The position numbers and the translations under genes were made by a program. From an uncultured Candidatus Rokubacteria bacterium (GTDB lineage Bacteria > Methylomirabilota > Methylomirabilia > Rokubacteriales > DASRDR01): DNA of 64,000 bases. The stretch is from assembly GCA_963826115.1 (NCBI GenBank), contig CAWGVS010000010.1, positions 416,001 to 480,000 of the forward strand, read 5' to 3'. Positions 23,564-38,460 of the stretch are shown here, piece by piece. The notes beneath the pieces are model-generated. The model was not told the DNA's origin, made no database searches, and saw only the letters and a program-made list of their open reading frames with translations. The first letter of the stretch is position 1; every line of letters starts with the position of its first letter.

Positions 23564-23956
23564 CTAGCGAGGCGCGCCCGCCGCGGGCTTCAGCACGAGG
23601 AAGTCGGCCACGCCGATCAGGCGCAGGATGAGGCGGACGGGCCAGGGCACCATCCGCCGGGACGGGTCGTGGACCACCTCGGGGTGGACCAGGCGGACGT
23701 GCCGGCCGCGCGTCTCCACGACGCATGCGCCGGCCGCCAGGACGTTCTTCACCCACTCGCTGTCGCGCCCGTAGGTCAATGCGATCGCGTAGCCCAGGCC
23801 CTGCGCAAAGATGTTCACCGGCGTGCGCCGCACCCGGCCGCTCGTCCGGCCGACGTGGGTCACCATGGCGAAGCCGGGCGCCCACCACGCGATGTGCCGC
23901 AGGATGGGATTGGTCAGGATCAGGTTGAGTCGGGCGACGGCCCTGGGAATCGGCAT
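23564..23956 (-). CDS. Deazaflavin (F420)-dependent nitroreductase-family oxidoreductase (DDN/FDOR-like)
   Basis: 'HVGRTSGRVRRTPV...ALTYGRDSEWVKNVLAAG'. Confidence 0.82.
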   Translation of the reverse strand: MPIPRAVARLNLILTNPILRHIAWWAPGFAMVTHVGRTSGRVRRTPVNIFAQGLGYAIALTYGRDSEWVKNVLAAGACVVETRGRHVRLVHPEVVHDPSRRMVPWPVRLILRLIGVADFLVLKPAAGAPR

Positions 23957-24055
23957 CGCAGCTCCAAGGTACGCCGGCTCGGCGGCTCGCCGCGAGCGCT
24001 CGAGGCGCTGTGATATGGTGAGGCGGGCGCACGTCAGGACGCCCGGGAAGAGGCC

Positions 24056-24415
24056 ATGGTGGCGGAGCGCTTCATCATGAACGCCGGTCGGACGACCAAG
24101 CAGGGGCAGCAGGTCAACGCCGGCAAGGACTCCCCGGAGTATCGGGCGATCGTGAGCACCCTGACCATGCACCCCGAGGACATGCGGACGGTCGGCGTCG
24201 CCGCCGGCGGCTCCGTCCGGGTGCGCACGCCCCACGGCGAGGCGGTCTTCCAGTGCGTCGAGGGGAAGGTCCCCGCGGGGATGATCTTCGTCCCCTACGG
24301 CCCGCCCACCTGCCGGCTGATGGGCGGCGAGACCGACGGGACCGGCATGCCGACGTCCAAGGGCTGGGAGGTCGAGGTCGAGGCCATCGGGCCCGACGGC
24401 CCGGCCTCGGCGTAG
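24056..24415 (+). CDS. fwdD: Formylmethanofuran dehydrogenase subunit D (molybdopterin dinucleotide-binding domain)
   Basis: 'GRTTKQG', 'MHPEDM', 'VRVRTPHGE', 'GMIFVPYGP', 'TDGTGMPTSKG'; first gene of the fwd cluster. Confidence 0.88.
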   Translation: MVAERFIMNAGRTTKQGQQVNAGKDSPEYRAIVSTLTMHPEDMRTVGVAAGGSVRVRTPHGEAVFQCVEGKVPAGMIFVPYGPPTCRLMGGETDGTGMPTSKGWEVEVEAIGPDGPASA

Positions 24416-24448
24416 ACCGTCTCGCGACGCGGGATCGGGGAGCGCACG

Positions 24449-24607
24449 ATGGCAGAGCGGTTCGAAGAAACAAGGATGGGGGAGCGGGACGCCGCGCGGC
24501 CCGACGCTCCGGCCGGCGGCCACACCCCGGCCTGGGAGCTGGTCGAGCCCGGGCGCTACCGACCCCTCCGGATCCGGGGGAGCTTCCCCGGCCGCGAGCT
24601 CGGCTGA
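24449..24607 (+). CDS. Possible 52-aa small ORF between fwdD and fwdB
   Basis: GGGGAG-N6-ATG; MAERFEETRMGERDAARPDAPAGGHTPAWELVEPGRYRPLRIRGSFPGRELG; no recognised family. Confidence 0.3.
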   Translation: MAERFEETRMGERDAARPDAPAGGHTPAWELVEPGRYRPLRIRGSFPGRELG

Positions 24608-24663
24608 ACGTTCGCGGTGCCGCCCGGTCCGGGGCGGCCAGACGAGGCGGAAGCGGGAGACCG

Positions 24664-25998
24664 ATGACCGTCACGGTCGTGAAGAACGCGACGTGCACCT
24701 TCTGCGGGTGCGTCTGCGACGACATCGAGCTCCACGCCGATGGCACGCGGATCCTCAAGAGCAAGAACGCCTGCAGCCTCGGCGACGCCTGGTTCCAGAA
24801 CCACACGGCCGAGCGCCTGTACCCCGACGCGCTGGTGGACGGGAAGCCCGCGACGCTCGACGCCGCGGTGGAGGCGGCCGCGAGCTTCCTCCACGCCGCG
24901 GACATGCCGCTCGTCTACGGCCTCAGCAACATCACCTGCGAGGCCCAGCGGGAGGCGGTGGCGATCGCCGAGCTGATCGGCGGCGTGATCGACAGCCACA
25001 CCTCCCTCTGACACGGCCCCACTGAGATAGCCGCCCAGTTGGGGGGCAAGGTGACGTGCACGCTGGGGGAAGTGAAGAACCGGGCGGACCTCATCATCTA
25101 CTGGGGCGGTAATCCGGCCGAGTGCCACCCGCGGCACTTCACGAAGTACACGCTGACCCAGAAGGGGAAGTACGTCCCGCAGGGCCGGAAGGGCCGCTAC
25201 ATGGTCCTGGTCGACATCCGCGAGACGCCCAGCGCGCGCGCGGCCGACCTGTTCCTCCAGATCCGGCCCGGCAAGGACTTCGAGGTCGTCACCACGCTCC
25301 TGGCGCTCGTGAAGGGCCGCCCGGTGGACGCCGAGCGCGTCGCCGAGACTGGCATGACGGTCGAACAGCTCCAGGACCTCGCGGACCGGATGAAGCGCGC
25401 CCGCTTCGGCGTCCTGTTCTTCGGGATGGGCCTGTCGATGACGCGGGGGAAGCACATGAACTCCGCGTCGGTCCTGACCCTGGTCACGGCGCTGAACGCC
25501 TACACGAAGTTCGTCGCCATGCCGATGCGGGGCCACGGCAACGTGACCGGCGCCGACATGGTGATCCGCTGGACGACGGGCTACCCGTTCGGCGTCAACC
25601 TGGCCCGCGGCTACCCCCGCTTCAATCCCGGCGAGTTCTCGACCGTGGACCTCCTCGTCCGCGGCGACAACGACGCCGCGCTCATCCTGGGGGCCGATCC
25701 GGGCGCCACGATGCCCCAGCCCGGCATCGAGCACCTGCGCCGCATCCCGACGATCGTCCTCGACCCGAAGGTGACCCACACCAGCCGCATGGCGCGCGTG
25801 CACATCACGACCGCCGCCACCGGCATCAGCGCGCCCGGCACCGTGTACCGCATGGACGAGGTGCCGCTCCCGCTCCGGCCCGCCCTCAGCTCCCCGTACC
25901 CGACCGACGAGGAGGTCCTGCGCCGCATCCGCCGGGCCGTCGCGGCGAAGCCGGCCTGGACGCCGGCGGCGTCGAACGGTCGACCGCGCTCCGCCTGA
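24664..25998 (+). CDS. fwdB: Formylmethanofuran dehydrogenase subunit B, selenocysteine-containing (in-frame TGA 25009-25011, residue 116)
   Basis: N-terminal [4Fe-4S] motif CTFCGCVCDD...NAC. 'DSHTSL*HGPT' aligns with FwdB 'DxxxSxCHGP'. The downstream in-frame ORF has 'TCTLGEVKNRADLIIYWGGNP...HPRH' and 'MRGHGNV'. 444 aa when read through. Confidence 0.9.
25012..25048 (+). promoter_or_regulatory. Candidate bacterial SECIS hairpin
   Basis: cacggccccactgagatagccgcccagttggggggc can fold as CCCC-ACUG/CAGU-U-GGGG (loop AGAUAGCCGCC) or GCC-G-CCC/GGG-G-GGC (loop AGUU). Both loops have G at position 2. Rare codons (ACT, ATA, TTG) cluster here. Confidence 0.6.
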
Positions 25999-26003
25999 CC
26001 GCG

Positions 26004-27638
26004 ATGCTCCGCATCACCGGCGGGAAGGTCTACGATCCCGCCAACGGCGTGGACGGCGAAGTCCGGGACGTCGCCATCGCGGATGGCCGGATCGTGTCCC
26101 ACGTCGAGGGCGGGCGGACGATCGACGCGACGGGCATGGTCGTCGTCCCCGGTGGCGTCGACGCCCACACCCACGTGGCCGGCGCCGCGCTCAACTTCGC
26201 GCGCGCCATGACCCCGGAAACCCAGCGGCAGGCGCTTCCGTTCCTCCACACGCCGGAGCGGCGGATGGGGCTCGGCGGCCTCACGCCCACGACCTTCGCC
26301 ACCGGGTACCTCTACGCCGGCATGGGCTACACGACGGTCACCGAGGCCGCGGTGCCGGTGCTCACCGCCAAGCACACGCACGAGGAGCTCCGCGACACGC
26401 CGATCCTCGACAAGGCGTGCCTGCTCCTCATGGCCAACAACGAGATCGTGATGGACCTCCTGGAGGCCGGGGAGACGGAGCGCGCCGGTCACGTCGTGGC
26501 CTGGCTCATCTGGGCCGCCAAGACGTACGGCGTGAAGGCGGTCAACCCGGGCGGCGTGGCGGCCTGGAAGTGGGGCGGGAACGCGAAGGGGCTCACCGAT
26601 CCGATCGAGGGCTACCGCACCGTGACCCCGGCCCGGATCATCGAGAGCCTGGCGGATATCATCGACGGCCTCGGGCTCCCGCACCCGCTCCACCTTCACT
26701 GCAACGCGCTCGGCATGCCGGGCAACGTCGCGACCACGCTCGAGACCATGCGGATATTGGAGGGCCGCCGGGCCCACCTGGCGCACCTCCAGTTCCACGC
26801 GTACGGCGGCGACGACTGGGCCACGATGCGCTCGGAGGCGCCGGCGGTCGCCGAGTACTTCAACGCGCACCCGGGCTTCACGGCCGACGCCGGCGCGATC
26901 CTGTTCGGGAACGCCATGACGATCACCGCCGACGGGCCCTGGCAGCACCTGCTCCACGAGCTGACCGGGCGCAAGTGGGGCAACATCGACGTCGAGAACG
27001 AGACGGGGTGCGGCATCGTGCCGTACGTCTACAAGAAGCGCAGCCTCGTCAACGCGGTGCAGTGGGCGACGGGGCTCGAGCTCCTGCTGCTCGTCACCGA
27101 CCCCTGGCGGATCTTCCTGACCACCGACCATCCGAACGGAGCCGGCTTCTGGCGCTACGCGGAGATCGTCCAGCTCCTGACGGACGTGGACTACCGCCGG
27201 GAGCGGGTGAAGAGCCTGCCGACCAAGGCGCTCAAGCGGATCGTGCTCCCGGAGCTCGACCGCCGGTACACGCTGTCGGAGATCGTGACCATCACCTCCG
27301 CGGGGCCGGCGCGGGCTCTCGGCCTCTCGCGGAAGGGGCATCTCGGCGTCGGCGCGGACGCGGACGTGGCGATCTACTCCGAGCGCGCGGGCGTCGTGGC
27401 GATGTTCCAGTCGCCCCGCTACGTCCTGAAGGGCGGCGAGATCGTCGTCGAGGAGGGCCAGGTCCGGGCGGTGACCGAGGGCCGCGAGTTCGTCGTCCGG
27501 CCCGCCTTCGATCCCGGCATCGAGGACTACCTCCGGCCGGTGTTCCAGCAGTCCTACACCATGTCCTTCGACAACTACCCGGTCGAGGCCGAACGCGTCC
27601 ACGGCATGGAGCTGGCCGAGTGCCGGCCCCGCGCGTGA
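26004..27638 (+). CDS. fwdA: Formylmethanofuran dehydrogenase subunit A (binuclear amidohydrolase)
   Basis: 'YDPANGVDGEVRD', metal ligands 'DAHTHVAG', 'GVKAVNPGG', 'HLHCN', 'HLQFHAYG', 'TTDHPN'; 'ETGCGIVP'. Confidence 0.93.
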   Translation: MLRITGGKVYDPANGVDGEVRDVAIADGRIVSHVEGGRTIDATGMVVVPGGVDAHTHVAGAALNFARAMTPETQRQALPFLHTPERRMGLGGLTPTTFATGYLYAGMGYTTVTEAAVPVLTAKHTHEELRDTPILDKACLLLMANNEIVMDLLEAGETERAGHVVAWLIWAAKTYGVKAVNPGGVAAWKWGGNAKGLTDPIEGYRTVTPARIIESLADIIDGLGLPHPLHLHCNALGMPGNVATTLETMRILEGRRAHLAHLQFHAYGGDDWATMRSEAPAVAEYFNAHPGFTADAGAILFGNAMTITADGPWQHLLHELTGRKWGNIDVENETGCGIVPYVYKKRSLVNAVQWATGLELLLLVTDPWRIFLTTDHPNGAGFWRYAEIVQLLTDVDYRRERVKSLPTKALKRIVLPELDRRYTLSEIVTITSAGPARALGLSRKGHLGVGADADVAIYSERAGVVAMFQSPRYVLKGGEIVVEEGQVRAVTEGREFVVRPAFDPGIEDYLRPVFQQSYTMSFDNYPVEAERVHGMELAECRPRA

Positions 27639-27645
27639 CCCCCGC

Positions 27646-28455
27646 ATGATCACGCTGACGCTCACGCGGCCGCCGACCGTGCCCCTCGAGGCGGAGAGCA
27701 TCTCGCCGGACGTCATGGCGCCGCTCTCCCACGACGCGATCCGAGCCCTGCCGGTGCTCCTGGGGAAGCGGCAGCGCCGTCTCGACGACTTCTTCGCGGT
27801 CGAGGGCGTGGCGAGCGACGAGCTCCTGATCCGGGGCGACCTCGGGCGGGTCAAGTGGATCGGCCGGGGCATGACGCGCGGCCGCATCGCCATCGAGGGC
27901 AACGCGGGCATGCACCTCGGGGCCTCCATGCGGGGCGGGACGATCGAGGTCCGCGGCAACGTGTCCGACTGGCTGGGCGCCGAGATGTCGGGTGGGCTCA
28001 TCCGGGTCCGCGGCAACGCCGGCGGCCAGGTGGGGGCCGCCTATCGCGGCAGCCCCCGAGGGATGAACCAGGGGACGATCCTGATCGAGGGCTCGGCGGG
28101 CATCGAGCTGGGGATGCGGATGCGGCGCGGCGTCATCGCCGTCGCCGGTCCCGTGCGCGACTTCGCCGGGCTCCAGATGAAGGGCGGGACGATCTTCCTG
28201 CTGGGCGGGGCGGAGATCCGGACCGGCGCCTGGATGAGCCGCGGCACGATCGTCTCCATGAAGCCGCTCCACCTCCTGCCGACGTTCACCTACGCCTGCA
28301 CATATCAGCCCACGTTCCTGCGCCTCTACGCGCGACATCTCGAGACCCTCGGGTTGCCCATTCCCGCCGATTCCGGGGATGGGTCCTACCAGCGCTACAC
28401 GGGGGACACGTCGGGCCTGGGCAAGGGCGAGATCTTGGTGTGGGAGGCGCGGTAA
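27646..28455 (+). CDS. fwdC: Formylmethanofuran dehydrogenase subunit C (GXGXG beta-helix)
   Basis: 'PLEAESISPD', repeated 'G..M..G.I.I.GN.G', C-terminal 'GKGEIL'. Confidence 0.93.
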   Translation: MITLTLTRPPTVPLEAESISPDVMAPLSHDAIRALPVLLGKRQRRLDDFFAVEGVASDELLIRGDLGRVKWIGRGMTRGRIAIEGNAGMHLGASMRGGTIEVRGNVSDWLGAEMSGGLIRVRGNAGGQVGAAYRGSPRGMNQGTILIEGSAGIELGMRMRRGVIAVAGPVRDFAGLQMKGGTIFLLGGAEIRTGAWMSRGTIVSMKPLHLLPTFTYACTYQPTFLRLYARHLETLGLPIPADSGDGSYQRYTGDTSGLGKGEILVWEAR

Positions 28456-28590: not shown

Positions 28591-29460
28591 ATGCCTCTCC
28601 GCGTAACGAAGCCAGAGCTGGAGTTGGACGTCCCGAAGGGCGCCTCCGCCGTTCCCCACACGGTGGTCAGCTTCCGGGACCTGATTCCGGCCGTCCAGGA
28701 GGACGAGCTCGCCGTCGAGGAGCCGCTCGAGATCCGGCTGGGCGGTACGAGTCTCGCCGTGACCATGCGGACGCCCGGGCACGACGAGGAGCTCGTCGCG
28801 GGCCTGCTGCTCTCTGAGCGCGTGATCGAGGGCCCCGCCGACATCGACGTGATCGCCCACTACACCGGACCGGACGACGATCCCCGGGTCGGGAACGTGA
28901 TCAACGTCCTCCTGAACCGTCCCGGCCCCGCGATCCACCAGCGCCTCCACCGGAGCTTTTTCACGTCCTCCGCCTGCGGCCTCTGCGGCAAGACCTCGCT
29001 GGACGCGATCGACTTGGACTTCCAGCCCGTTGCCGGCGACGTCACGGTGTCCCTCGACGCGCTCTACACGCTCGTCCCCGCGCTGACCGCGGTGCAGGCG
29101 ACCTTCGAGCGGACGGGTGGCCTCCACGCGGCCGCGCTCTTCGACTCCACCGGGCAGCTCCTGGCGGTGCGGGAGGACGTGGGGCGGCACAACGCCGTCG
29201 ACAAGGTCGTCGGCCACATGCTGCTGACGGGCGGCCTGCCCCTCGACCGGCACATCCTGATGGTGAGCGGACGGGCGAGCTTCGAGATCATGCAGAAGGC
29301 GCTGGTGGCGCGGATCCCTGTCGTGGCCGCCATCTCGGCGCCGTCGAGCCTGGCGGTCCAGCTGGCGCTCGCCAACGGCGTGACCCTCATCGGCTTTCTG
29401 CGCCCCGGGCGGCTCAACGTGTACGCGAATTCCCACCGGCTCCGGCCGGAGCCTGCGTGA
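28591..29460 (+). CDS. fdhD: Formate dehydrogenase accessory sulfurtransferase
   Basis: 'VEEPLEI', 'TMRTPGHD', 'SSACGLCGK', 'TGGLHAAALF', 'EDVGRHNAVDKVVG', 'SAPSSLAV'. Confidence 0.95.
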   Translation: MPLRVTKPELELDVPKGASAVPHTVVSFRDLIPAVQEDELAVEEPLEIRLGGTSLAVTMRTPGHDEELVAGLLLSERVIEGPADIDVIAHYTGPDDDPRVGNVINVLLNRPGPAIHQRLHRSFFTSSACGLCGKTSLDAIDLDFQPVAGDVTVSLDALYTLVPALTAVQATFERTGGLHAAALFDSTGQLLAVREDVGRHNAVDKVVGHMLLTGGLPLDRHILMVSGRASFEIMQKALVARIPVVAAISAPSSLAVQLALANGVTLIGFLRPGRLNVYANSHRLRPEPA

Positions 29461-31503: not shown

Positions 31504-32433
31504 CTAGCCCCCCGCGTCCGCCGAGAGTATGACGATGTTGTCTCCCGGATTGACGGTGACCGTCGGCGTGCGGATGAAGTCCAGGCCGTTCACGTTGCAC
31601 GCAAAGCCGTCGATGAGGCGAGCCCGATCGGGGGCGATGACCCTGCCAACCAACACCGGCAGCTCGGCGGCGAGCGCCGCATAGACCTCGGAGAACGTCG
31701 CCCCCGCGGGCAGGCTGAGCGACACCTCCCTGGTGTGGGCCAGGAAGCGCGCAGCGCCGAACAGCTCGACGGTGCACTGAATCGTGGCATCCGAGCGCAG
31801 GCCGGGTGATCGGCGCGCCTGGCTCCAGCGCCTCTGCGCCTCTGCGTAGTCCTCCGGCGTGTTCATGTTGAAGAAGCTCGAACCGTCGGGGTCGAAGCGG
31901 CGAATCTCCTCCTCGTCGACCCTGCGGGTGCGAACGCGATCGAACAGATAGACGGGCCTCAGCTGCCCGCGCGCGAGGAGCTCCGCGAGGTGCGGTAGCA
32001 CGCTGCGTCGATAGACCGCATGCAGCGGTTGGTCGCGGCCCTGCCAGTGAGGCACGACGACGTCGTGCTCCGGCATCTGCGAGACGAGGTGTGCGATCAG
32101 GTCCACGTTCAGGAACGCCGCGTCGCAGGACGTGGCGAAGCTGACCTCCCCGCGGGCGGCGCCGAGCCCGTAGCAGAGCCCGCCGACGGGCCCCTGGTGC
32201 TCGACCTGGTCGCGCACCAGCGTGACGGGCATCGAGGGCAGATCCTGGCCCGGTGCGGCGACGACGACCACCTCGGCAAACCGGCGTCGCAGCGTGGCGA
32301 CGATGTGCACGATGAGCGGCGTGCCGTCGAAGAGGAGTAGCGCCTTGGGCGTGCCCATGCGCGAGCTCCGGCCTCCGGCCAGCACGATGGCCGTGGCACC
32401 GGTCGCGTTACCTGGACGTTCGATCGCAGTCAT
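31504..32433 (-). CDS. mobA: Molybdenum cofactor guanylyltransferase MobA fused to a C-terminal MoaD/ThiS domain
   Basis: 'IVLAGGRSSRMGTPKALL', 'QGPVGG', 'QPLHAVY', 'FFNMNTPEDY', then a beta-grasp 'CTVELFGAAR...ILSADAGG'. Confidence 0.88.
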   Translation of the reverse strand: MTAIERPGNATGATAIVLAGGRSSRMGTPKALLLFDGTPLIVHIVATLRRRFAEVVVVAAPGQDLPSMPVTLVRDQVEHQGPVGGLCYGLGAARGEVSFATSCDAAFLNVDLIAHLVSQMPEHDVVVPHWQGRDQPLHAVYRRSVLPHLAELLARGQLRPVYLFDRVRTRRVDEEEIRRFDPDGSSFFNMNTPEDYAEAQRRWSQARRSPGLRSDATIQCTVELFGAARFLAHTREVSLSLPAGATFSEVYAALAAELPVLVGRVIAPDRARLIDGFACNVNGLDFIRTPTVTVNPGDNIVILSADAGG

Positions 32434-33666: not shown

Positions 33667-36600
33667 ATGAGCCTGTCTCGACGTGACTTCCTGAAGTGGT
33701 CCGGCGGCGCCTCCGGCGGCGTTCTCGCGGGAACCCGGGGCATCGACCTCGCCCCCGTCGAGGCCGCCGTGAGCGACCTCCGGATCAAGGAGGCCAAGAC
33801 CTTCCCGGGCGTCTGTCCCTACTGCGCGGTCGGGTGTGCCCAGCTGATCTACGTGAAGGACGGCAAGATCGTCGACATCGAGGGCGACCCCGACACCCCG
33901 CATACCGAAGGCGCGCTCTGCCCGAAAGGCTCCTCTACCTACCAGCTCTCGGTCAACGCGCGCCGCTTGACGAAGCCCATGTACCGGGCGGCGGGTAGCG
34001 ACAAGTGGGAAGAGAAGCCCCTCGACTGGATGATGGAGCAGATCGCCCAGCGCGTGAAGAAGACGCGGGACGCCAGCTTCGTCGAGACCGCCAAGGTCGG
34101 CGACAAGCCCGTCACCGTCAATCGCTGCGAGGGCATTGCCTGGCTCGGCTCCTCGGTGCTCGACAACGAGGAGAACTACCTGATCGCGAAGCTCTCCCGG
34201 GGCCTCGGCCTGGTGAACCTGGAGAACTCCGCGCGGCTCTGCCACTCGGCGACCGTGCCGGCGCTCGGCGCGACCTTCGGCCGGGGCGCCATGACGACCA
34301 ACCTGATCGACGTCATCAACGCCGACGTGATCATGCCGACCTCCAACTGGGCCGAGTGCCACCCCGTCAGCTACAAGTGGGTGATGAAGGCCAAGGAACG
34401 CGGCGCGACGATCATCCACGTCGATCCTCGCTTCACACGGACGTCCGCGACCGCGGACATCTGGGTGCCCATCCGGTCCGGCACCAACATCGTGTACTTC
34501 GGCGGGCTCATCCGCCACGCGATCGAAAGCAACAAGTACTTCCACGACTACGTGGTCGCCTACACCAACGCCTCGCTCCTCCTGGACCCGGCGTTCAAGA
34601 GCCCGACGGATCTCGACGGAGTGTTCAGCGGCTTCGACGCGGGAAAGCGTGCCTACGACCAGGCAACCTGGAAGTTCCAGCTCGATGCCGACGGCTACCC
34701 CAAGCAGGACAAGACCCTGAAGGACCCGAACTGCGTCTTCCAGCATCTCCGCCGGCACTACTCGCGATACACCCCGGAGATGGTCGAGAAAGTGTGCGGC
34801 ATCTCGAAGGAGCTGTTCCTCAAGGTGGCCGACATCTTCTGCTCGGCCTCCGGGCCCGACAAGACCTCGACCATCTCGTACGCGCTTCAGCTTAACCAGT
34901 CGACGAACGGCGTGCAGCAGATCCGCTCCCTCTGCATGCTCCAGCTGATCCTCGGCAACATCGGACGCCCGGGCGGGGGAGTCGTGGCCCTCCGGGGGCA
35001 CTCGAACGTCCAGGGGGCCACGGATTTCGGGACGCTCTACCACATGTTGCCGGGCTATCCGATCGAGCCCCTCCAGGCGGCCCACCCCACCCTGACCGAC
35101 TATCTCGAGAAGACGACGCCCAAGGGCGGCTACTGGGTGAACAATCCGAAGTTCGTGATCAGCCTGCTCAAGGCTTGGTGGGGCCCCGCTGCCACGAAGG
35201 ACAACGACTACGCCTACGACCACCTCCCGAAGCGGGAGAAGGGCGATGCGTACTCGCACCAGCACTTCATGATCGCGATGCTCGAGAAGAAGGTGAAGGG
35301 GTTCCTTTGCATGGGCCAGAACCCGGCGGTCGATAGCCCGAACGCCGGAACGGTTCGTCAGGGTCTCCGGAACCTCGAGTGGCTGGTCGTCGTCGATCTC
35401 TTCGAGACCGAGACGGCCGCGGTGTGGAAGGCGCCGGGCGCCGATTCGAAGTCCTGCCAGACCGAGGTGTTCTTCATCCCGGGAGCGCCAGCGGCGGAGA
35501 AAGATGGATCGATCACCAACACCATGCGTCTCGCGCAGTGGCACGTGAAGGCGGTCGAACCGCCCGGTGAATCCCGCTCCGACGCGGCATTCATCGTGGA
35601 GCTCGGGAACAGGCTCAAGGCGCTGTACACGGGTTCCCGCGCCAAGAAGGACCGGCCTGTGCTCGACCTAGTCTGGGACTACCAGCCCGACGGACCGAAG
35701 AAGGAACCGAAGATGGAGCTGGTCCTGAAGGAGGTCAACGGATACGCCACCGAGGACATCCCGGACAAGGACAAGCCCGGGGAGCTCCTGTTCAAGCGCG
35801 GCCAGCCGGTCAAGAGCTTCGGGAACCTGCGGGACGATGGTTCGACGGCCTGCGGCAACTGGATCTACTCCGGGATCTATCCCGAGGAGGGGAAGAATCT
35901 CGCCGCCCGGCGCGAGAAGCCGAAGGGCGACGACTATCTCGCCCACGGCTGGGGGTTCGCTTGGCCGGCGAACCGCCGGATCCTCTACAACCGCGCCTCG
36001 GCGGACCCCTCGGGGAAGCCCTGGAGCGAGAAGAAGAAGCTCATCTGGTGGGACGCCGCCCAGAAGAAGTGGGTCGGCAACGACGTGCCCGACTTCAGCC
36101 CCGTCATGGCGCCCGACGCGCCACGCGCGAAGGACGGCCCGCTCAAGGGTATCTCGGGAACCGACGCGTTCATCATGAACCCGCATGGGCTCGGGCAGTT
36201 CTTCGCGTCGGTCCTGGACGGGCCGTTCCCCGAGCACTATGAGCCCTTCGAGTCGCCCACTCAGAACCTCCTCTCGAAGGTCCAGAACAACCCCGTCGCC
36301 AAGGTCTACGACGTCGGTGATCTCAACAAGCTCGGGACGCCGGACAAGTACCCCTTCGTCCTCACGACGTACCGGCTCACCGAGCACCACGCTGCCGGCA
36401 TGTCGCGGCATGTGCCCTGGCTCTCCGAGCTGTTCTTTGGCCACTTCGCGGAGATCGGGCCCGAGATGGCAAAGCAGCTCGGAATCCAGAACGGCGACAT
36501 GCTGAGCGTCGAGACGCCCCGGGCCAAGATCAAGGTGCGGGCGCTCGTGACCGAACGCATCAAGCCGTTCACGATCAACGGTAAGAAGGTTTACCAGGTC

Positions 36601-36747
36601 GGCATCCCGTGGCACTGGGGGTACCAGGGCGTCATGGAGTCGGCTCGAGGCGACGTGACCAACGACCTCGTCGCGAACCTCGGCGACCCGACGACGTTCA
36701 TCCAGGAGTCCAAGGCGCTCCTCTGCAACGTGCGGAAGGAGGCGTAG
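33667..36747 (+). CDS. fdnG: Formate dehydrogenase alpha subunit (FdnG/FdoG-like), Tat-exported, Cys-ligated
   Basis: Tat 'SRRDFLK'; CPYCAVGC...LCPKG; 'ENSARLCHSAT' (TGC at 34240); 'LRGHSNVQG'; 'GPFPEHYEPFESP'; 'TTYRLTEH'. Confidence 0.93.
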   Translation: MSLSRRDFLKWSGGASGGVLAGTRGIDLAPVEAAVSDLRIKEAKTFPGVCPYCAVGCAQLIYVKDGKIVDIEGDPDTPHTEGALCPKGSSTYQLSVNARRLTKPMYRAAGSDKWEEKPLDWMMEQIAQRVKKTRDASFVETAKVGDKPVTVNRCEGIAWLGSSVLDNEENYLIAKLSRGLGLVNLENSARLCHSATVPALGATFGRGAMTTNLIDVINADVIMPTSNWAECHPVSYKWVMKAKERGATIIHVDPRFTRTSATADIWVPIRSGTNIVYFGGLIRHAIESNKYFHDYVVAYTNASLLLDPAFKSPTDLDGVFSGFDAGKRAYDQATWKFQLDADGYPKQDKTLKDPNCVFQHLRRHYSRYTPEMVEKVCGISKELFLKVADIFCSASGPDKTSTISYALQLNQSTNGVQQIRSLCMLQLILGNIGRPGGGVVALRGHSNVQGATDFGTLYHMLPGYPIEPLQAAHPTLTDYLEKTTPKGGYWVNNPKFVISLLKAWWGPAATKDNDYAYDHLPKREKGDAYSHQHFMIAMLEKKVKGFLCMGQNPAVDSPNAGTVRQGLRNLEWLVVVDLFETETAAVWKAPGADSKSCQTEVFFIPGAPAAEKDGSITNTMRLAQWHVKAVEPPGESRSDAAFIVELGNRLKALYTGSRAKKDRPVLDLVWDYQPDGPKKEPKMELVLKEVNGYATEDIPDKDKPGELLFKRGQPVKSFGNLRDDGSTACGNWIYSGIYPEEGKNLAARREKPKGDDYLAHGWGFAWPANRRILYNRASADPSGKPWSEKKKLIWWDAAQKKWVGNDVPDFSPVMAPDAPRAKDGPLKGISGTDAFIMNPHGLGQFFASVLDGPFPEHYEPFESPTQNLLSKVQNNPVAKVYDVGDLNKLGTPDKYPFVLTTYRLTEHHAAGMSRHVPWLSELFFGHFAEIGPEMAKQLGIQNGDMLSVETPRAKIKVRALVTERIKPFTINGKKVYQVGIPWHWGYQGVMESARGDVTNDLVANLGDPTTFIQESKALLCNVRKEA

Positions 36748-36749
36748 CC

Positions 36750-37523
36750 ATGGCCCGCACCCTCGCGATGTTCACGGACGTCTCGCTGTGCATCGGGTGT
36801 CGCGCCTGCCAGGTCGCCTGCAAGCAGTGGAACCAGCTGGCGCCCGAGGAGCCGGAGTGGACCGGCACCTACCAGAACCACGCGCACTTCACTGACAAGA
36901 GCTACCGGCTCGTGCGGTTCTTCGAGGAGCCGGACGACAAGGTCGGCGTGCGCTGGCACATGATGTCCGACGTGTGCAAGCACTGCGCCCAGGCGGGCTG
37001 CCTGGAGGCGTGCCCCACCGGGGCGATCTACCGCACCGAGTACGGCACGGTCAACATCAACCAGGACATCTGCAACGGCTGCCGCTACTGCGTGTCCGCC
37101 TGCCCGTTCGGCGTGGTCGCGTTCAACCACGACACCGGCACCGCCACGAAGTGCACGTTCTGCAACGACCGCATCCACAACGGCCTCGGACCCGCCTGCG
37201 CGAAGGCGTGCCCGACCGAGTCGATCCGTTTCGGCTACCGCGACGAGCTGGCGGCCCTTGCCCGGAAGCGGGTGGAGACGCTCCGGAAGCAGGGGTACAA
37301 GGACGCCCGGCTCTACGGCGAGGATCAGAACGGCGCCCTGGGCGGCCTGAACGCCTTCTTCCTGATCACGGGGAAACCGTCGATCTACGGACTGCCCGAG
37401 AACCCGAAGCTCCCTCAACGCAACGTGTTTGTCGACTCTCTCCTGTCGATCGGCTCGGCAATCGCCGTCGGGATCGGGGCCGTCGTGGCGTTCCGCTCGC
37501 GGGGCGGGAAGGAGGAGAGCTGA
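36750..37523 (+). CDS. fdnH: Formate dehydrogenase iron-sulfur subunit (FdnH-like) with C-terminal TM helix
   Basis: Four CxxCxxCxxxC-type motifs (CIGCRACQVAC, CKHC...CLEACP, CNGCRYCVSACP, CTFC...CAKACP). Confidence 0.92.
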   Translation: MARTLAMFTDVSLCIGCRACQVACKQWNQLAPEEPEWTGTYQNHAHFTDKSYRLVRFFEEPDDKVGVRWHMMSDVCKHCAQAGCLEACPTGAIYRTEYGTVNINQDICNGCRYCVSACPFGVVAFNHDTGTATKCTFCNDRIHNGLGPACAKACPTESIRFGYRDELAALARKRVETLRKQGYKDARLYGEDQNGALGGLNAFFLITGKPSIYGLPENPKLPQRNVFVDSLLSIGSAIAVGIGAVVAFRSRGGKEES

Positions 37524-37524
37524 G

Positions 37525-38460
37525 ATGGAGCCCGGACTTCTCAAGAGCGCCGACTGGCCGCTGCTGATCGACGTCTACTTCTTCCTGGGCGGGATCGCGG
37601 GCGGGGCCTTCGTGATCGCCACCATCGCGAACCTTCTCGACGCCGAGCGGTACCGCAGCGTCGTCCGTGCAGGCTATTACGTCGCTCTCCTGGCCGTGAT
37701 CCCGGCACCGATCCTGCTCATCGCCGATCTCGGGCGCCCGACGCGTTTCCTGCACATGATGATGGTGGCGAAGCCATCCACGCAGATCGGCATGGGCGCG
37801 CTGACCCTCGGCCCGTTCCACCTGAAGCTGGTCTCGCCCATGAGCATGGGCGCGTGGGCGCTGCTCGCGTTCAGCGGGCTTGCCTTCCTGGCCGCGCTCG
37901 ACGTGTTCCTTGAGCACCGCGGGGGACGCGGGTTCCCGGGGCTCCGGATGATCGTCGGCCTGGTGGGGTCCGTCTTCGGGTTCTTCCTGGCGGCGTATCC
38001 GGGCGTCCTGCTGGGCGCGACCGCGCGGCCGCTGTTCGTCAACGGCCACTGGCTGGGTGCGCTGTTCGTGGCCGTCGGAGCTTCGACCGGAGGGGCGGCG
38101 ATCGCGCTGGCCCTCGCCCTCTTCGGCGGTGAGCGGCGCGACGGGCTCGCCGCGCTCATGCGCACAGTGGCCATCGCGCTCGTCGTGCAGGCCGTGGCGC
38201 TGGTGCTCTTCATCGTGACCGTGAAGATGAGTGGCTCGGTCGGCATCGGCCAGGCGCTCACGCCGCTCGTGTCCGGTCAGTACAGCCTGACCTTCTGGCT
38301 CGGCGCCGTGACGATCGGGTTGATCGTGCCCCTCGCTCTCGCGTTCAGCGGCCGCCTCCGGCGGGCGTCCGCCGGGCTCGCCGCCCTCGTGGCGATCCTG
38401 GTGCTGGTGGGCGGCTTCGTCATCAAGTACGTCCTGATCGCCGCGGGCCAGGTCACCTGA
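37525..38460 (+). CDS. NrfD/PsrC family membrane anchor
   Basis: 'WPLLIDVYFFLGGIAGG', 'LIADLGRPTRF', 'SPMSMGAWAL', 'YPGVLLGATARP'. Confidence 0.9.
   Translation: MEPGLLKSADWPLLIDVYFFLGGIAGGAFVIATIANLLDAERYRSVVRAGYYVALLAVIPAPILLIADLGRPTRFLHMMMVAKPSTQIGMGALTLGPFHLKLVSPMSMGAWALLAFSGLAFLAALDVFLEHRGGRGFPGLRMIVGLVGSVFGFFLAAYPGVLLGATARPLFVNGHWLGALFVAVGASTGGAAIALALALFGGERRDGLAALMRTVAIALVVQAVALVLFIVTVKMSGSVGIGQALTPLVSGQYSLTFWLGAVTIGLIVPLALAFSGRLRRASAGLAALVAILVLVGGFVIKYVLIAAGQVT

What the first reader, a model, noticed from the sequence alone, without database searches (positions are those of the whole stretch)
24664..25998. Selenocysteine-encoding formylmethanofuran dehydrogenase B subunit in a bacterium
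Seen: the ORF track splits fwdB in two, but both halves are in the same frame, separated only by TGA at 25009-25011 in 'DSHTSL*HGPT'. Known: this is the position of the Cys that ligates Mo/W in FwdB/FmdB (S-x-C-H-G-P), and Sec versions (FwuB/FwdB) are established in Methanopyrus and Methanococcales archaea, which use 3'-UTR SECIS elements. Here the context UGA-CAC-GGC-CCN matches the start of the E. coli fdhF Sec context, and a hairpin follows directly, as in bacterial SECIS elements. Inference: a bacterial-style recoded Sec-Fwd that standard annotation would call a pseudogene. I cannot verify how novel it is.
Basis: partly seen in the sequence, partly recalled or inferred. Interest (0 to 1): 0.92.

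Follow-up and report, generated by a model that had tools for sequence, protein, structure and literature searches.

The report
Bacterial selenocysteine formylmethanofuran dehydrogenase operon
The apparent stop codon inside this soil bacterium's formylmethanofuran dehydrogenase gene is a genuine selenocysteine codon, a known kind of recoding that is widespread yet routinely mis-annotated, and a tiny conserved gene just upstream carries a second such codon that may report whether selenium is available.

Summary
TGA at 25009-25011 lies in frame in a full-length fwdB (24664-25998) and aligns with the tungsten-ligand Cys118 of solved FwdB.

- The genome has selA, selB, tRNA-Sec and a Sec-containing selD.
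- 79 of 80 nearest relatives from several phyla carry TGA at this codon. More distant Cys-type homologues carry TGC or TGT.
- A hairpin (GCCGCCC-AGUU-GGGYGGC) 22-39 nt from the UGA is held almost invariant at synonymous sites.
- Public gene calls truncate the gene.

It is not new in kind. A Sec-fmdB in a planctomycete and in unclassified bacteria was published in 2016, and reviews list FwdB as a selenoprotein family of both bacteria and archaea.

I did not find the following in print. Between fwdD and fwdB lies a small ORF (24449-24667). Its conserved 24-residue core ends in an invariant TGA (24605-24607). A covarying hairpin follows, with a GGUC loop at the same spacing as in E. coli fdhF. 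The ORF accompanies Sec-type fwdB in 80 of 81 genome loci and is missing from Cys-type operons. It is either a small selenoprotein or a Sec-dependent leader peptide; that question is open.

The parts
24056..24415 (+). fwdD: molybdopterin-dinucleotide-binding 'fourth domain' subunit, 119 aa, stop TAG
   Evidence: Pfam PF01568 Molydop_binding, E 3e-12. Found upstream of fwdB in 74 of 80 related loci. Stop codon read.
24449..24667 (+). Small ORF: 52 codons, in-frame TGA at 24605-24607, 19 further codons, then a stop TGA at 24665-24667 that overlaps the fwdB ATG (ATGA). Putative small selenoprotein or Sec-dependent leader peptide.
   Evidence: Translation. Core W-E-x-[IV]-x-x-G-R-[YF]-x-P-R-R-x-[RK]-G-S-x-x-G-R-x-L-G followed by TGA in the window and 79 of 80 genome loci and in 78 of 80 metagenome loci. 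Residues are invariant while third codon positions vary. No Pfam or NCBIfam match.
24619..24638 (+). Hairpin after the small ORF's TGA: GCCGCCC / GGUCCG / GGGCGGC. Loop G22 G23 U24 C25, counted from the U of UGA. Putative SECIS.
   Evidence: -16.1 kcal/mol, z -2.82. On 67 sequences, 21 cells changed on both sides against 4.2 in shuffles, reached by 0 of 500 shuffles; pair types GC/GU/UA/AU and CG/UA/UG. RNAalifold finds the inner 4 pairs. E. coli fdhF has the same loop at the same spacing.
24664..25998 (+). fwdB: catalytic subunit of W/Mo formylmethanofuran dehydrogenase, 444 aa, Sec at codon 116
   Evidence: TIGR03129 at 502.5 bits. PDB FwdB chains at E 1e-94 to 5e-112. U116/H117/R289 align with Cys118/His119/Arg288 of 5t5i_B.
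25009..25011 (+). UGA read as selenocysteine (U116)
25030..25047 (+). Hairpin GCC-G-CCC / AGUU / GGG-G-GGC, 22-39 nt from the U of UGA: putative bacterial SECIS of fwdB. It has a G.G mismatch in this genus; most other lineages have a perfect 7-bp stem.
   Evidence: -11.4 kcal/mol, z -2.14. 98.2% of 553 cells paired in 81 sequences. RNAalifold gives the same consensus. Third-position entropy is 0-0.33 at codons +7 to +10, against about 1-1.9 at most other four- and six-fold codons in the stretch.
26004..27638 (+). fwdA: amidohydrolase subunit
   Evidence: Pfam Amidohydro_3, E 8e-50. Downstream of fwdB in 66 of 80 loci.
27646..28455 (+). fwdC: GXGXG beta-helix subunit
   Evidence: Pfam GXGXG, E 1.1e-11. 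Found in 53 of 80 loci; flanks were limited to 3 kb.
28591..29460 (+). fdhD-like gene (FdhD/NarQ family). Its role as a sulfur carrier for Mo/W-bisPGD enzymes is recalled, not tested here.
   Evidence: Pfam FdhD-NarQ, E 3.9e-67. Seen within the 3-kb flanks in 4 of 80 loci, all in the Rokubacteria clade (three titled Rokubacteria, one titled only 'uncultured bacterium').

Best explanation
The TGA at 25009-25011 is a selenocysteine codon in an intact fwdB/fmdB gene of a 'Candidatus Rokubacteria' (Methylomirabilota) genome.

Inferred decoding mechanism (from the E. coli fdhF paradigm, recalled): SelB with Sec-tRNA(Sec) binds the in-ORF hairpin 22-39 nt downstream and delivers Sec to the ribosome at UGA116.

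Inferred by homology: Sec116, with His117 and Arg289, forms the W/Mo-bis-pyranopterin active site, and the N-terminal cysteines bind a [4Fe-4S] cluster. FwdD caps the cofactor. FwdA (amidohydrolase) and FwdC complete a formylmethanofuran dehydrogenase.

The same genome holds Fae, Ftr, Mch and tetrahydromethanopterin-biosynthesis genes. The enzyme therefore most likely interconverts formyl-methanofuran and CO2 at the end of an H4MPT-linked C1 pathway. The direction and the electron partner are unknown.

The gene belongs to one Sec-type fwdD-sORF-fwdB-fwdA-fwdC lineage shared by Rokubacteria, Acidobacteriota, Planctomycetota and others. Gene callers truncate it systematically.
For: Sec machinery in the same genome:
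- selA at 576.5 bits and selB at 347.8 bits, adjacent on contig C8.
- tRNA-Sec (anticodon tca) next to them.
- selD at 393.2 bits, itself with one in-frame TGA in 'SHGAG*ACK'.

TGA is otherwise a normal stop: 67% of 1999 long high-GC3 ORFs end in it, as does fwdB itself.

Conservation of the codon:
- TGA at codon 116 in 7 of 7 same-genus copies.
- TGA in 79 of 80 best genome-contig loci, from records titled Rokubacteria, Acidobacteriota/Vicinamibacteria, Gemmataceae/Pirellulales, Binatia, Gemmatimonadetes and others.
- TGA in 60 of 60 metagenome loci in which my pattern found the codon.
- Cys (TGC/TGT) in the 63-66% identical homologues L024-L026 and L028.

Active site:
- U116/H117/R289 align with Cys118/His119/Arg288 of 5t5i_B. 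Those residues are named catalytic in PMC6926001 (passages).
- 9sfi_Q has X at the same place.

Hairpin. Leu+10 inside the loop is TTG in 81 of 81 sequences, while Leu+18 uses six codons.

Within-genome comparison: 16 of 22 motif-picked selenoprotein candidates have a GU-loop hairpin 20-29 nt after the UGA, against 28 of 187 other same-frame TGAs. The window's fwdB itself failed that strict test because of its G.G mismatch.

Operon and pathway: operon; Fae, Ftr, Mch and pterin genes on contig C3.

Contigs of three DNA studies bridge the site with no listed change at 25009-25011.
Against: - No direct evidence of Sec incorporation.
- The fwdB hairpin shows no compensatory double changes, because its columns are almost invariant. 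Every measure equals the shuffles (500 of 500), so its support is synonymous-site conservation, not covariation.
- In this genus the stem has a G.G mismatch (5 of 81 sequences).
- The 67-nt fold is not unusual for its composition: z -0.70, with 43 of 200 shuffles folding as well.
- No Rfam family matched, and no Pfam family at E <= 0.001 matched the protein.
- In one search, 105 difference rows were not shown, so a minority variant at the TGA cannot be excluded.
- The hairpin is also retained in the one TGC locus, L056.
Confidence: 0.9

Rival explanations
1. Pseudogene: a nonsense mutation has inactivated fwdB.
For: Table 11 splits the frame. G012 and G004 (contig C18) carry copies matched in two pieces, which may be broken or mis-assembled.
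Against: The same TGA is present in 79 of 80 genome loci and 60 of 60 metagenome loci. Both halves are 78-92% identical in protein, and synonymous variation on both sides shows purifying selection.
Confidence: 0.02
2. Sequencing or assembly error: the true codon is TGC or TGT.
For: None found. One relative (L056) does have TGC.
Against: Independent assemblies agree. Contigs from three DNA studies bridge the site with no listed difference there.
Confidence: 0.01
3. Two separate polypeptides are made, or the UGA is read through by a near-cognate tRNA (Trp or Cys) without selenium.
For: A TTG at 25039 and the public call starting 'MTCTLGEV' could in principle start a C-terminal piece. Near-cognate read-through of UGA exists in bacteria (PepNL; PMC11890864, abstract).
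Against: The metal ligand and the FeS domain would be separated from the pterin-binding domains. Complete Sec machinery is present, a conserved hairpin sits at SECIS distance, and the position aligns with Cys or Sec of solved enzymes.
Confidence: 0.04
4. About the upstream small ORF, reading A. It is a Sec-dependent leader or arrest peptide. The conserved nascent chain holds the ribosome at the UGA. Only if SelB with Sec-tRNA(Sec) decodes that UGA does translation run on towards the fwdB start. Expression of the Sec enzyme is thereby tied to working Sec decoding.
For: - Conservation covers only the roughly 24 residues before the UGA. The N-terminus and the tail (12-49 codons) vary.
- TGA in 80 of 80 carriers, whereas fwdB's own terminal stop in the same 80 loci is TGA in only 27 (TAG 33, TAA 19, 1 runs off the locus).
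- Found only with Sec-type fwdB: exactly the 8 of 61 related genomes that carry it. Absent from Cys-type operons and from L056.
- No established Cys lineage.
- The extended frame ends on ATGA/GTGA at the fwdB start in 28 of 149 loci, and 2-20 nt upstream of it in 40 of 149. The spacing is congruent to 2 mod 3 in 26 of 46 loci with spacing <= 70 nt.
- Precedents: PepNL stalls at a UGA and is relieved by read-through (abstract). Selenium controls fdhF(Sec) transcription through translation in Treponema primitia (abstract).
Against: - In 81 of 149 loci the extension stops more than 20 nt before fwdB, up to 461 nt before (77 loci), or more than 1 nt past its start (4 loci).
- My start-codon assignment is heuristic, and the loci are related, not independent.
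- Phe at +2 is invariant with TTC/TTT variation, and Thr at +1 uses four codons. This hints at protein-level selection after the UGA.
- No stalling or regulation data exist.
Confidence: 0.35
5. About the upstream small ORF, reading B. It is a small selenoprotein of about 60-100 aa that works with the Fwd complex as a subunit or maturation factor.
For: - A canonical SECIS-like hairpin with covariation.
- The peptide is conserved at protein level across phyla.
- Residues after the UGA (T/V-F-V/T-V/I-P) are conserved, also in 8 read-through database entries.
- Strict linkage to fwdB.
Against: - AlphaFold gives no confident fold: mean pLDDT 55.5, pTM 0.26, only a short beta-hairpin.
- No partner cysteine or redox motif is conserved.
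- Much of the conservation at +5 to +10 is explained by the hairpin. The P-to-S and G-to-D changes track the C-G to U-A pair changes.
- The Cys, Trp and Arg variants are singletons on contigs of about 1.1 kb or shorter.
Confidence: 0.35

Closest known systems
Sec-containing fmdB of planctomycete 'P2' (Rhodopirellula-like) and two unclassified bacteria (Kim et al. 2016, PLoS One, PMC4807772; section 17 read)
   Same: A bacterial fmdB encoded as a selenoprotein. The operon is fmdD-fmdB-fmdA-fmdC. Some organisms hold both Sec and Cys forms.
   Different: A different phylum here (Rokubacteria). That section does not describe the SECIS or any small ORF between fmdD and fmdB.
Archaeal Sec-FwdB (FwuB of Methanopyrus kandleri; Methanococcales). 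Listed with Vorholt et al. 1997 in the review tables (PMC13188914 and PMC9312934, passages)
   Same: Same family (TIGR03129), same U-H-x-P site, same metal-ligand position.
   Different: Here the hairpin lies inside the ORF directly after the UGA, and a bacterial SelB is present. FwdF and FwdG polyferredoxin genes were not seen next to this operon.
E. coli formate dehydrogenase H (fdhF), Sec140 and its SECIS
   Same: UGA CAC GGC CC context. A hairpin with G and U in the apical loop. The small ORF's hairpin has the same GGUC loop at nt 22-25.
   Different: The fwdB loop is AGUU and starts at nt 29, 7 nt further out. Protein similarity to FdhH is only marginal (E 1.4e-4). The domain-IV equivalent is a separate protein, FwdD.
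FhcB of the formyltransferase/hydrolase complex of Methylorubrum extorquens (PDB 6s6y; Hemmann et al. 2019, PMC6926001, passages)
   Same: A bacterial homologue of FwdB working in an H4MPT-linked C1 pathway with FhcA, FhcC and FhcD.
   Different: FhcB has Ser in place of Cys118, lacks His119, Arg288 and the FeS domain, and has no FwdD partner. The window protein keeps all of these and matches 6s6y_B only at E 1.9e-14, against about 1e-105 to 1e-112 for true FwdB chains.
PepNL arrest peptide of E. coli (Ando et al. 2025, PMC11890864, abstract) and translation-coupled selenium control of fdhF(Sec) in Treponema primitia (Matson et al. 2013, PMC3892789, abstract)
   Same: For the small ORF: a short upstream ORF whose conserved nascent chain ends at a UGA, with read-through as the relieving event. 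Selenium supply is felt through translation of a UGA.
   Different: In T. primitia the sensing UGA lies in the enzyme gene itself, not in a separate leader. Nothing has been tested for this ORF.

Membership tests
FwdB/FmdB (formylmethanofuran dehydrogenase subunit B, TIGR03129) | Full-length match above the curated cut-off | tested here: met
   502.5 bits against a cut-off of 327.8, profile positions 1-420 of 421.
FwdB/FmdB (formylmethanofuran dehydrogenase subunit B, TIGR03129) | Metal-ligand Cys/Sec followed by His, plus the catalytic Arg (Cys118, His119, Arg288 of M. wolfeii FwdB) | tested here: met
   U116, H117 and R289 align with them. The residues are named in PMC6926001.
FwdB/FmdB (formylmethanofuran dehydrogenase subunit B, TIGR03129) | N-terminal cysteine cluster for the [4Fe-4S] centre | tested here: met
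   C11, C14, C16, C18 and C37 are present and invariant in 12 full-length homologues. They align with the cysteines of 5t5i_B.
FwdB/FmdB (formylmethanofuran dehydrogenase subunit B, TIGR03129) | Partner subunits FwdD, FwdA and FwdC encoded alongside | tested here: met
FwdB/FmdB (formylmethanofuran dehydrogenase subunit B, TIGR03129) | Formyl-methanofuran:acceptor oxidoreductase activity with a W or Mo cofactor | not testable with these tools
   Context only: fdhD and mobA-like genes nearby; Fae, Ftr and Mch in the genome.
FhcB (non-redox scaffold of the Fhc complex) | Loss of the Cys/His/Arg site, the FeS domain and FwdD | tested here: not met
   All are retained here. The match to 6s6y_B is weak, E 1.9e-14.
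Bacterial selenoprotein gene | In-frame UGA aligned with Cys in homologues | tested here: met
Bacterial selenoprotein gene | Stem-loop directly downstream, apical loop about 16-37 nt from the UGA with G among its first loop bases (criteria recalled from the bSECISearch model, not from a call) | tested here: met
   Loop AGUU at nt 29-32. Supported by conservation only, not covariation.
Bacterial selenoprotein gene | selA, selB, selC and selD in the genome | tested here: met
Bacterial selenoprotein gene | Selenium shown in the protein | not testable with these tools
   Needs 75Se labelling or mass spectrometry.
Small ORF as a selenoprotein | Conserved UGA with a covarying SECIS-like hairpin | tested here: met
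   TGA in 80 of 80 genome carriers and 78 of 78 metagenome carriers. 21 double-change cells, reached by 0 of 500 shuffles.
Small ORF as a selenoprotein | Cys-containing homologues | tested here: inconclusive
   Only 2 Cys, 4 Trp and 2 Arg read-through entries among the best 120 of 3286 clusters. All are singletons on short contigs. The nearest DNA relative of the Cys entry has TGA.
Ribosome arrest / leader peptide | Conservation confined to the tunnel-length stretch before the stall codon, with a variable N-terminus and a position directly 5' of the regulated gene | tested here: met
Ribosome arrest / leader peptide | Demonstrated stalling and an effect on the downstream gene | not testable with these tools
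   Needs toeprinting, ribosome profiling or reporters.

The most novel reading that the evidence does not exclude
The Sec-type fwd operon carries its own selenium check. A conserved leader peptide ends at a UGA followed by a canonical SECIS. Only when SelB with Sec-tRNA(Sec) decodes that UGA do ribosomes run on to the fwdB start, which in this window is an ATGA overlap. The cell therefore makes the selenoenzyme only when it can finish it. This would be the first Sec-tRNA-sensing leader peptide, the selenium counterpart of amino-acid attenuators and of the PepNL/TnaC class. It is spread over several soil and freshwater phyla.
Probability: 0.3. Interest if true: 0.8.

Novelty: new variant of a known kind. 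Interest (0 to 1): 0.5.

Why it matters
**The fwdB finding alone.** It is a confirmed member of a published kind, bacterial Sec-FwdB. Its practical value is for annotation and ecology. In one search, 107 of the 120 best database clusters are 310-318-aa fragments. Pipelines therefore under-call a formylmethanofuran dehydrogenase that the nearest relatives in Rokubacteria, Acidobacteriota and Planctomycetota genomes share at 78-92% identity. [quoted passage not shown]

**The upstream small ORF.** This is the part that could change thinking. It is a second invariant UGA with a covarying, E. coli-like SECIS in a 24-residue conserved core, and it is present only beside Sec-type fwdB. If regulatory, it gives a simple, testable model for how bacteria match selenoprotein expression to selenium supply. 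If a true subunit, it is a new small selenoprotein family. Searches that require Cys homologues (as described in PMC12013277, passages) would miss it.

Tried and rejected
- **Rfam.** No family at gathering score in the window. Only chance-level hits (E >= 1.1) around the TGA. There were no tRNA genes in the window.
- **Pfam on FwdB.** No hit at E <= 0.001. NCBIfam identified it instead.
- **E. coli DNA similarity.** blastn of the 91-nt context found nothing, so I fetched fdhF by accession.
- **G019.** I first took it for a second Sec lineage because one search listed '1 TGA'. One search showed a Cys-type gene with a frameshift, so I dropped it.
- **Terminators and promoters.** The simple scan found none in 23800-25200, so the small-ORF hairpin is not a classic intrinsic terminator.
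- **Small ORF annotation.** No Pfam or NCBIfam family even at E <= 10. The protein atlas gave only 'hypothetical protein' clusters scoring 0.87-0.88, below the 0.9 mark.
- **Small ORF structure.** The structure model was of low confidence.
- **Complex prediction.** FwdB alignment A4 + window FwdD + small-protein alignment A5 (collected; the first collecting call, 114, found the job unfinished). The result was 'no answer', score 0.17 against a mark of 0.32. I do not use it for or against binding.
- **Tree.** The careful search did not finish in 300 s. Only the quick tree was used.
- **Read laying.** Only contigs were available, not raw reads, and 105 difference rows were unseen. The RNA contig of X15 (25002-25315) starts 7 nt before the TGA and does not bridge it. 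I draw no expression claim from it.
- **Literature.** I found no report of a UGA-bearing small ORF or leader next to fwdB in the listings, or in the passages read. The groundwater selenoproteome study cited as reference 66 of PMC13188914 was not found in the library. The supplements of PMC4807772 were closed. Either could bear on novelty.
Full report
**Observation.** The window has TGA at 25009-25011, in the frame that runs from the ATG at 24664 to the stop at 25996-25998. Read with TGA=U, this frame gives a 444-residue protein with U116 in DSHTSL-U-HGPT. The protein matches NCBIfam TIGR03129 (formylmethanofuran dehydrogenase subunit B) end to end, at 502.5 bits against a cut-off of 327.8. It also matches five solved FwdB/FmdB-type chains, four deposited under that name and 9sfi_Q as 'Molybdopterin oxidoreductase', at E 5e-112 to 2e-94. 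U116, H117 and R289 align with Cys118, His119 and Arg288 of the M. wolfeii enzyme. Hemmann et al. name these as the catalytic residues that FhcB lacks (PMC6926001, passages). The best PDB match has a non-standard residue (X) at the same column.

**Is UGA read as Sec here?** The window is C10:416001-480000 of a 6.24-Mb, 72% G+C genome in 12 contigs.
- The genome encodes selA and selB side by side on C8, with a tRNA-Sec (anticodon tca) next to them.
- It also encodes a selD that itself has an in-frame TGA in SHGAG*ACK.
- TGA is otherwise the main stop: 1343 of 1999 long ORFs with high GC3 end in it. A reassigned code is therefore excluded.
- Ten other TGA-interrupted frames picked by motif all carry a Pfam domain spanning the TGA: six AhpC-TSA/Redoxin, and one each of UGSC, CMD, GATase and ThiF. 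This organism uses Sec widely.

**Conservation.**
- Among 60 relatives, five same-genus genomes carry 91-93% identical full-length orthologues. Two more carry the gene in two pieces. All have the TGA.
- The 63-66% identical homologues (G010, G004 contig C5, G025, G019) read SV-C-HGPSG with TGC or TGT. The '1 TGA' listed for G019 lies in a frameshifted stretch.
- A scan of one genome per species found 424 loci encoding a relative. Of the best 80 (78-92% identity), 79 have TGA and one (L056) has TGC. Their record titles name Rokubacteria, Acidobacteriota/Vicinamibacteria, Gemmataceae/Pirellulales/Planctomycetota, Binatia, Gemmatimonadetes, Polarisedimenticolia and a few others.
- The nearest records are titled 'Candidatus Rokubacteria', which places the window's organism.
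- In an independent metagenome collection, the codon was TGA in all 60 loci where my pattern found it.
- A quick maximum-likelihood tree separates this Sec clade (81 rows) from three Cys-type rows by a long branch. Inside the clade it groups rows largely by phylum, with very short inter-phylum branches (the careful search did not finish). Strong conservation, lateral spread and mis-binning cannot be told apart from this.

**The fwdB SECIS.**
- Directly downstream, nt 22-39 counted from the U of UGA form GCCGCCC-AGUU-GGGYGGC.
- RNAalifold predicts exactly this hairpin as the consensus of 81 sequences. 98.2% of 553 cells pair, against 29-56% when the 3' arm is slid by 1-3 columns.
- There are no compensatory double changes, and all measures equal the shuffles, because the columns hardly vary.
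- The real evidence is suppressed synonymous variation. Third-position entropy is 0.33, 0.28, 0 and 0 at codons +7 to +10 (GCC GCC CAG TTG). Most other four- and six-fold codons in the stretch give about 1-1.9. The loop leucine is TTG in 81 of 81, whereas the leucine eight codons later uses six codons.
- In this genus the Y is G, giving a G.G mismatch. The hairpin still folds at -11.4 kcal/mol (z -2.14), against -13.1 for the common form.
- The 67-nt stretch as a whole is not unusually stable: z -0.70.
- Within the genome, 16 of 22 motif-picked Sec candidates have a hairpin with GU in the loop starting 20-29 nt after the UGA, several with AGUU(G) loops. Only 28 of 187 other same-frame TGAs do. 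I chose the candidates by eye from protein motifs before looking at hairpins. The window's fwdB itself fails the strict 5-bp criterion because of its mismatch.

**Operon and pathway.**
- The gene order is fwdD (24056-24415), small ORF, fwdB, fwdA (26004-27638), fwdC (27646-28455), fdhD (28591-29460).
- FwdD, FwdA and FwdC flank fwdB in 74, 66 and 53 of 80 loci, within 3-kb flanks.
- Contig C3 holds Fae, Ftr, an MptG-like GHMP kinase, Mch and a GTP-cyclohydrolase/HPPK fusion. This is the bacterial H4MPT-linked C1 module.
- The protein is not FhcB. It keeps the ligand, His, Arg and the FeS cysteines, has an FwdD partner, and matches the Fhc structure only at E 1.9e-14.
- I infer a redox-active formyl-methanofuran dehydrogenase. 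The direction, the metal and the electron partner are not shown.

**Annotation.** Of the best 120 database clusters, 107 are fragments of 310-318 aa covering 65-72% of the query, and 13 cover 95-100%. The call made on this very genome is a 315-aa fragment (P0005). One NCBI model simply skips the region, and one homologue has Ser at the site.

**Reads.** Contigs of three DNA studies bridge the codon, and no difference at 25009-25011 is among the listed rows. However, 105 rows were not shown and no raw reads were available.

**Known or new?**
- Kim et al. [quoted passage not shown]
- The 2022 and 2026 selenoproteome reviews list FwdB as experimentally verified. [quoted passage not shown]
- Wells et al. 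2023 count 149 bacterial FwdB hits and note that UGA truncates such genes in annotation (PMC10100899, passages).
- The same review mentions a Methylomirabilota MAG with 63 predicted selenoprotein genes.
- The fwdB finding is thus a new member of a known kind.

**A second UGA.** The 248-nt gap between fwdD and fwdB is not empty.
- *Layout.* An ORF starts at 24449 and has an in-frame TGA at 24605-24607. It continues for 19 codons to a TGA at 24665-24667, which overlaps the fwdB ATG.
- *Occurrence.* Its core (W-E-x-I/V-x-x-G-R-Y/F-x-P-R-R-x-R/K-G-S-x-x-G-R-x-L-G) followed by TGA occurs in the window and in 79 of 80 genome loci. The exception is L056, the one TGC-fwdB locus. The core also occurs in 78 of 80 metagenome loci.
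- *Stop-codon choice.* The stop is TGA in every carrier. The genuine stop of fwdB in the same 80 loci is TAG 33, TGA 27, TAA 19, with 1 running off the locus.
- *Peptide selection.* Ten residues are invariant in 67 of 67 sequences, while their third codon positions vary (entropy 0.86-1.69, above 1.2 at seven of the ten). This shows selection on the peptide.
- *Hairpin.* After the TGA comes CCGCCC-GGUYC-GGGCGG, with real covariation. The pairs are GC 46, GU 6, UA 4, AU 3 at one position and CG 52, UA 12, UG 2 at another. There are 21 double-change cells against 4.2 in shuffles, reached by 0 of 500 shuffles. Its loop, G22 G23 U24 C25, has the same letters and spacing as the E. coli fdhF SECIS.
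- *Residues after the TGA.* Phe at +2 is invariant with TTC/TTT variation. Positions +5 to +10 are mostly explained by the hairpin.
- *Linkage to Sec-type fwdB.* A profile of the ORF hits, at E <= 1e-16, exactly the 8 of 61 related genomes that carry Sec-type fwdB. Each has one copy, directly upstream of fwdB. The four Cys-type operons examined lack it, and two of them clearly have shorter fwdD-fwdB gaps.
- *Database status.* It has 3286 database clusters, all 'hypothetical protein' where a source names them, apart from one entry in the listed 120 named uroporphyrinogen-III decarboxylase. There is no Pfam or NCBIfam family. Eight of the best 120 entries read through (4 Trp, 2 Cys, 2 Arg). All are singletons on short contigs, and the closest DNA relative of the Cys entry has TGA.
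- *Fold.* No confident fold is predicted.

**What the small ORF does is open.** Conservation is limited to the stretch before the UGA. The ends vary. The stop is always UGA. No Cys lineage is established. The ORF is linked only to the Sec form. Together these fit a leader or arrest peptide that senses Sec decoding.
- In 68 of 149 loci the extended frame ends within 20 nt before the fwdB start or on it. The spacing favours that frame: 26 of 46 loci with gaps <= 70 nt.
- Against this, 81 of 149 loci do not fit: in 77 the extension stops more than 20 nt upstream and in 4 it runs past the start. The loci are kin, and my start assignments are heuristic.
- Precedents are PepNL (abstract) and translation-coupled selenium control in Treponema primitia (abstract).
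- The rival reading is a small selenoprotein partner of Fwd. It is supported by protein-level conservation on both sides of the UGA.
- I put about 0.7 on the UGA being decoded as Sec, and about 0.35 on each functional reading.
- I found no description of this ORF in the searches listed under Tried and rejected.

**Verdict.**
- The novelty of the fwdB recoding itself is modest.
- The operon's second, leader-like Sec ORF raises the interest and is directly testable.

Noticed in passing
window 24449-24667 (+): Conserved small ORF between fwdD and fwdB with an invariant in-frame TGA (24605-24607) and a covarying SECIS-like hairpin (24619-24638). Its extended frame ends on the ATGA of the fwdB start. 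Present only beside Sec-type fwdB.
   Followed up: yes
G000 contigs C2, C5, C6, C10, C11, C12 (loci L212-L221): The genome is rich in selenoprotein genes. Ten TGA-interrupted frames each carry a Pfam domain across the TGA: six AhpC-TSA/Redoxin, and one each of UGSC, CMD/AhpD-like, class-I GATase and ThiF/MoeB-rhodanese. About a dozen further motif-picked candidates from 209 same-frame TGAs were not checked.
   Followed up: partly
G000:C5:561717 (locus L011): selD is itself a selenoprotein gene (SHGAG-TGA-ACK).
   Followed up: partly
G000:C10:502808-503287 (-), about 23 kb beyond the window end: A second molybdopterin-enzyme gene, formate-dehydrogenase-like, with one in-frame TGA. Similar TGA-bearing genes lie near the fwd operon in G002, G008, G013 and G003.
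   Followed up: no
window 31504-32433 (-) and 33667-38460 (+): A MobA-like NTP-transferase fused to a ThiS/MoaD-like domain. Next comes a TAT-signal molybdopterin oxidoreductase (1026 aa, no internal stop), a 4Fe-4S protein and an NrfD-type membrane subunit, i.e. a Psr/Ttr-like complex.
   Followed up: no
loci L048-L127: Sec-type FwdB is 78-92% identical across records titled as different phyla, with very short inter-phylum branches. Single rows labelled Actinomycetota, Binatota, Myxococcota and Pseudomonadota, and two labelled Gemmatimonadota, nest inside the Acidobacteriota or Planctomycetota groups. This could be lateral transfer, extreme constraint or mis-binning.
   Followed up: partly
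proteins P0002 and P0003: One NCBI gene model (417 aa) silently omits the stretch around the Sec codon. One 70%-identical homologue has Ser where Sec or Cys stands (SQTSV-S-HGPT), as FhcB does.
   Followed up: no
window 25041-25047 and loci L048-L051: The Rokubacteria clade has G instead of Y in the 3' arm of the fwdB hairpin, giving a G.G mismatch (5 of 81 sequences). Its small-ORF hairpin in four loci has a GGCC or GGCU loop without the U.
   Followed up: partly
G000:C3:80224-84262 (locus L131 8224-12263): An H4MPT-linked C1 gene cluster (Fae, Ftr, MptG-like kinase, Mch), followed by a GTP-cyclohydrolase/HPPK fusion and other pterin-pathway-like genes.
   Followed up: partly
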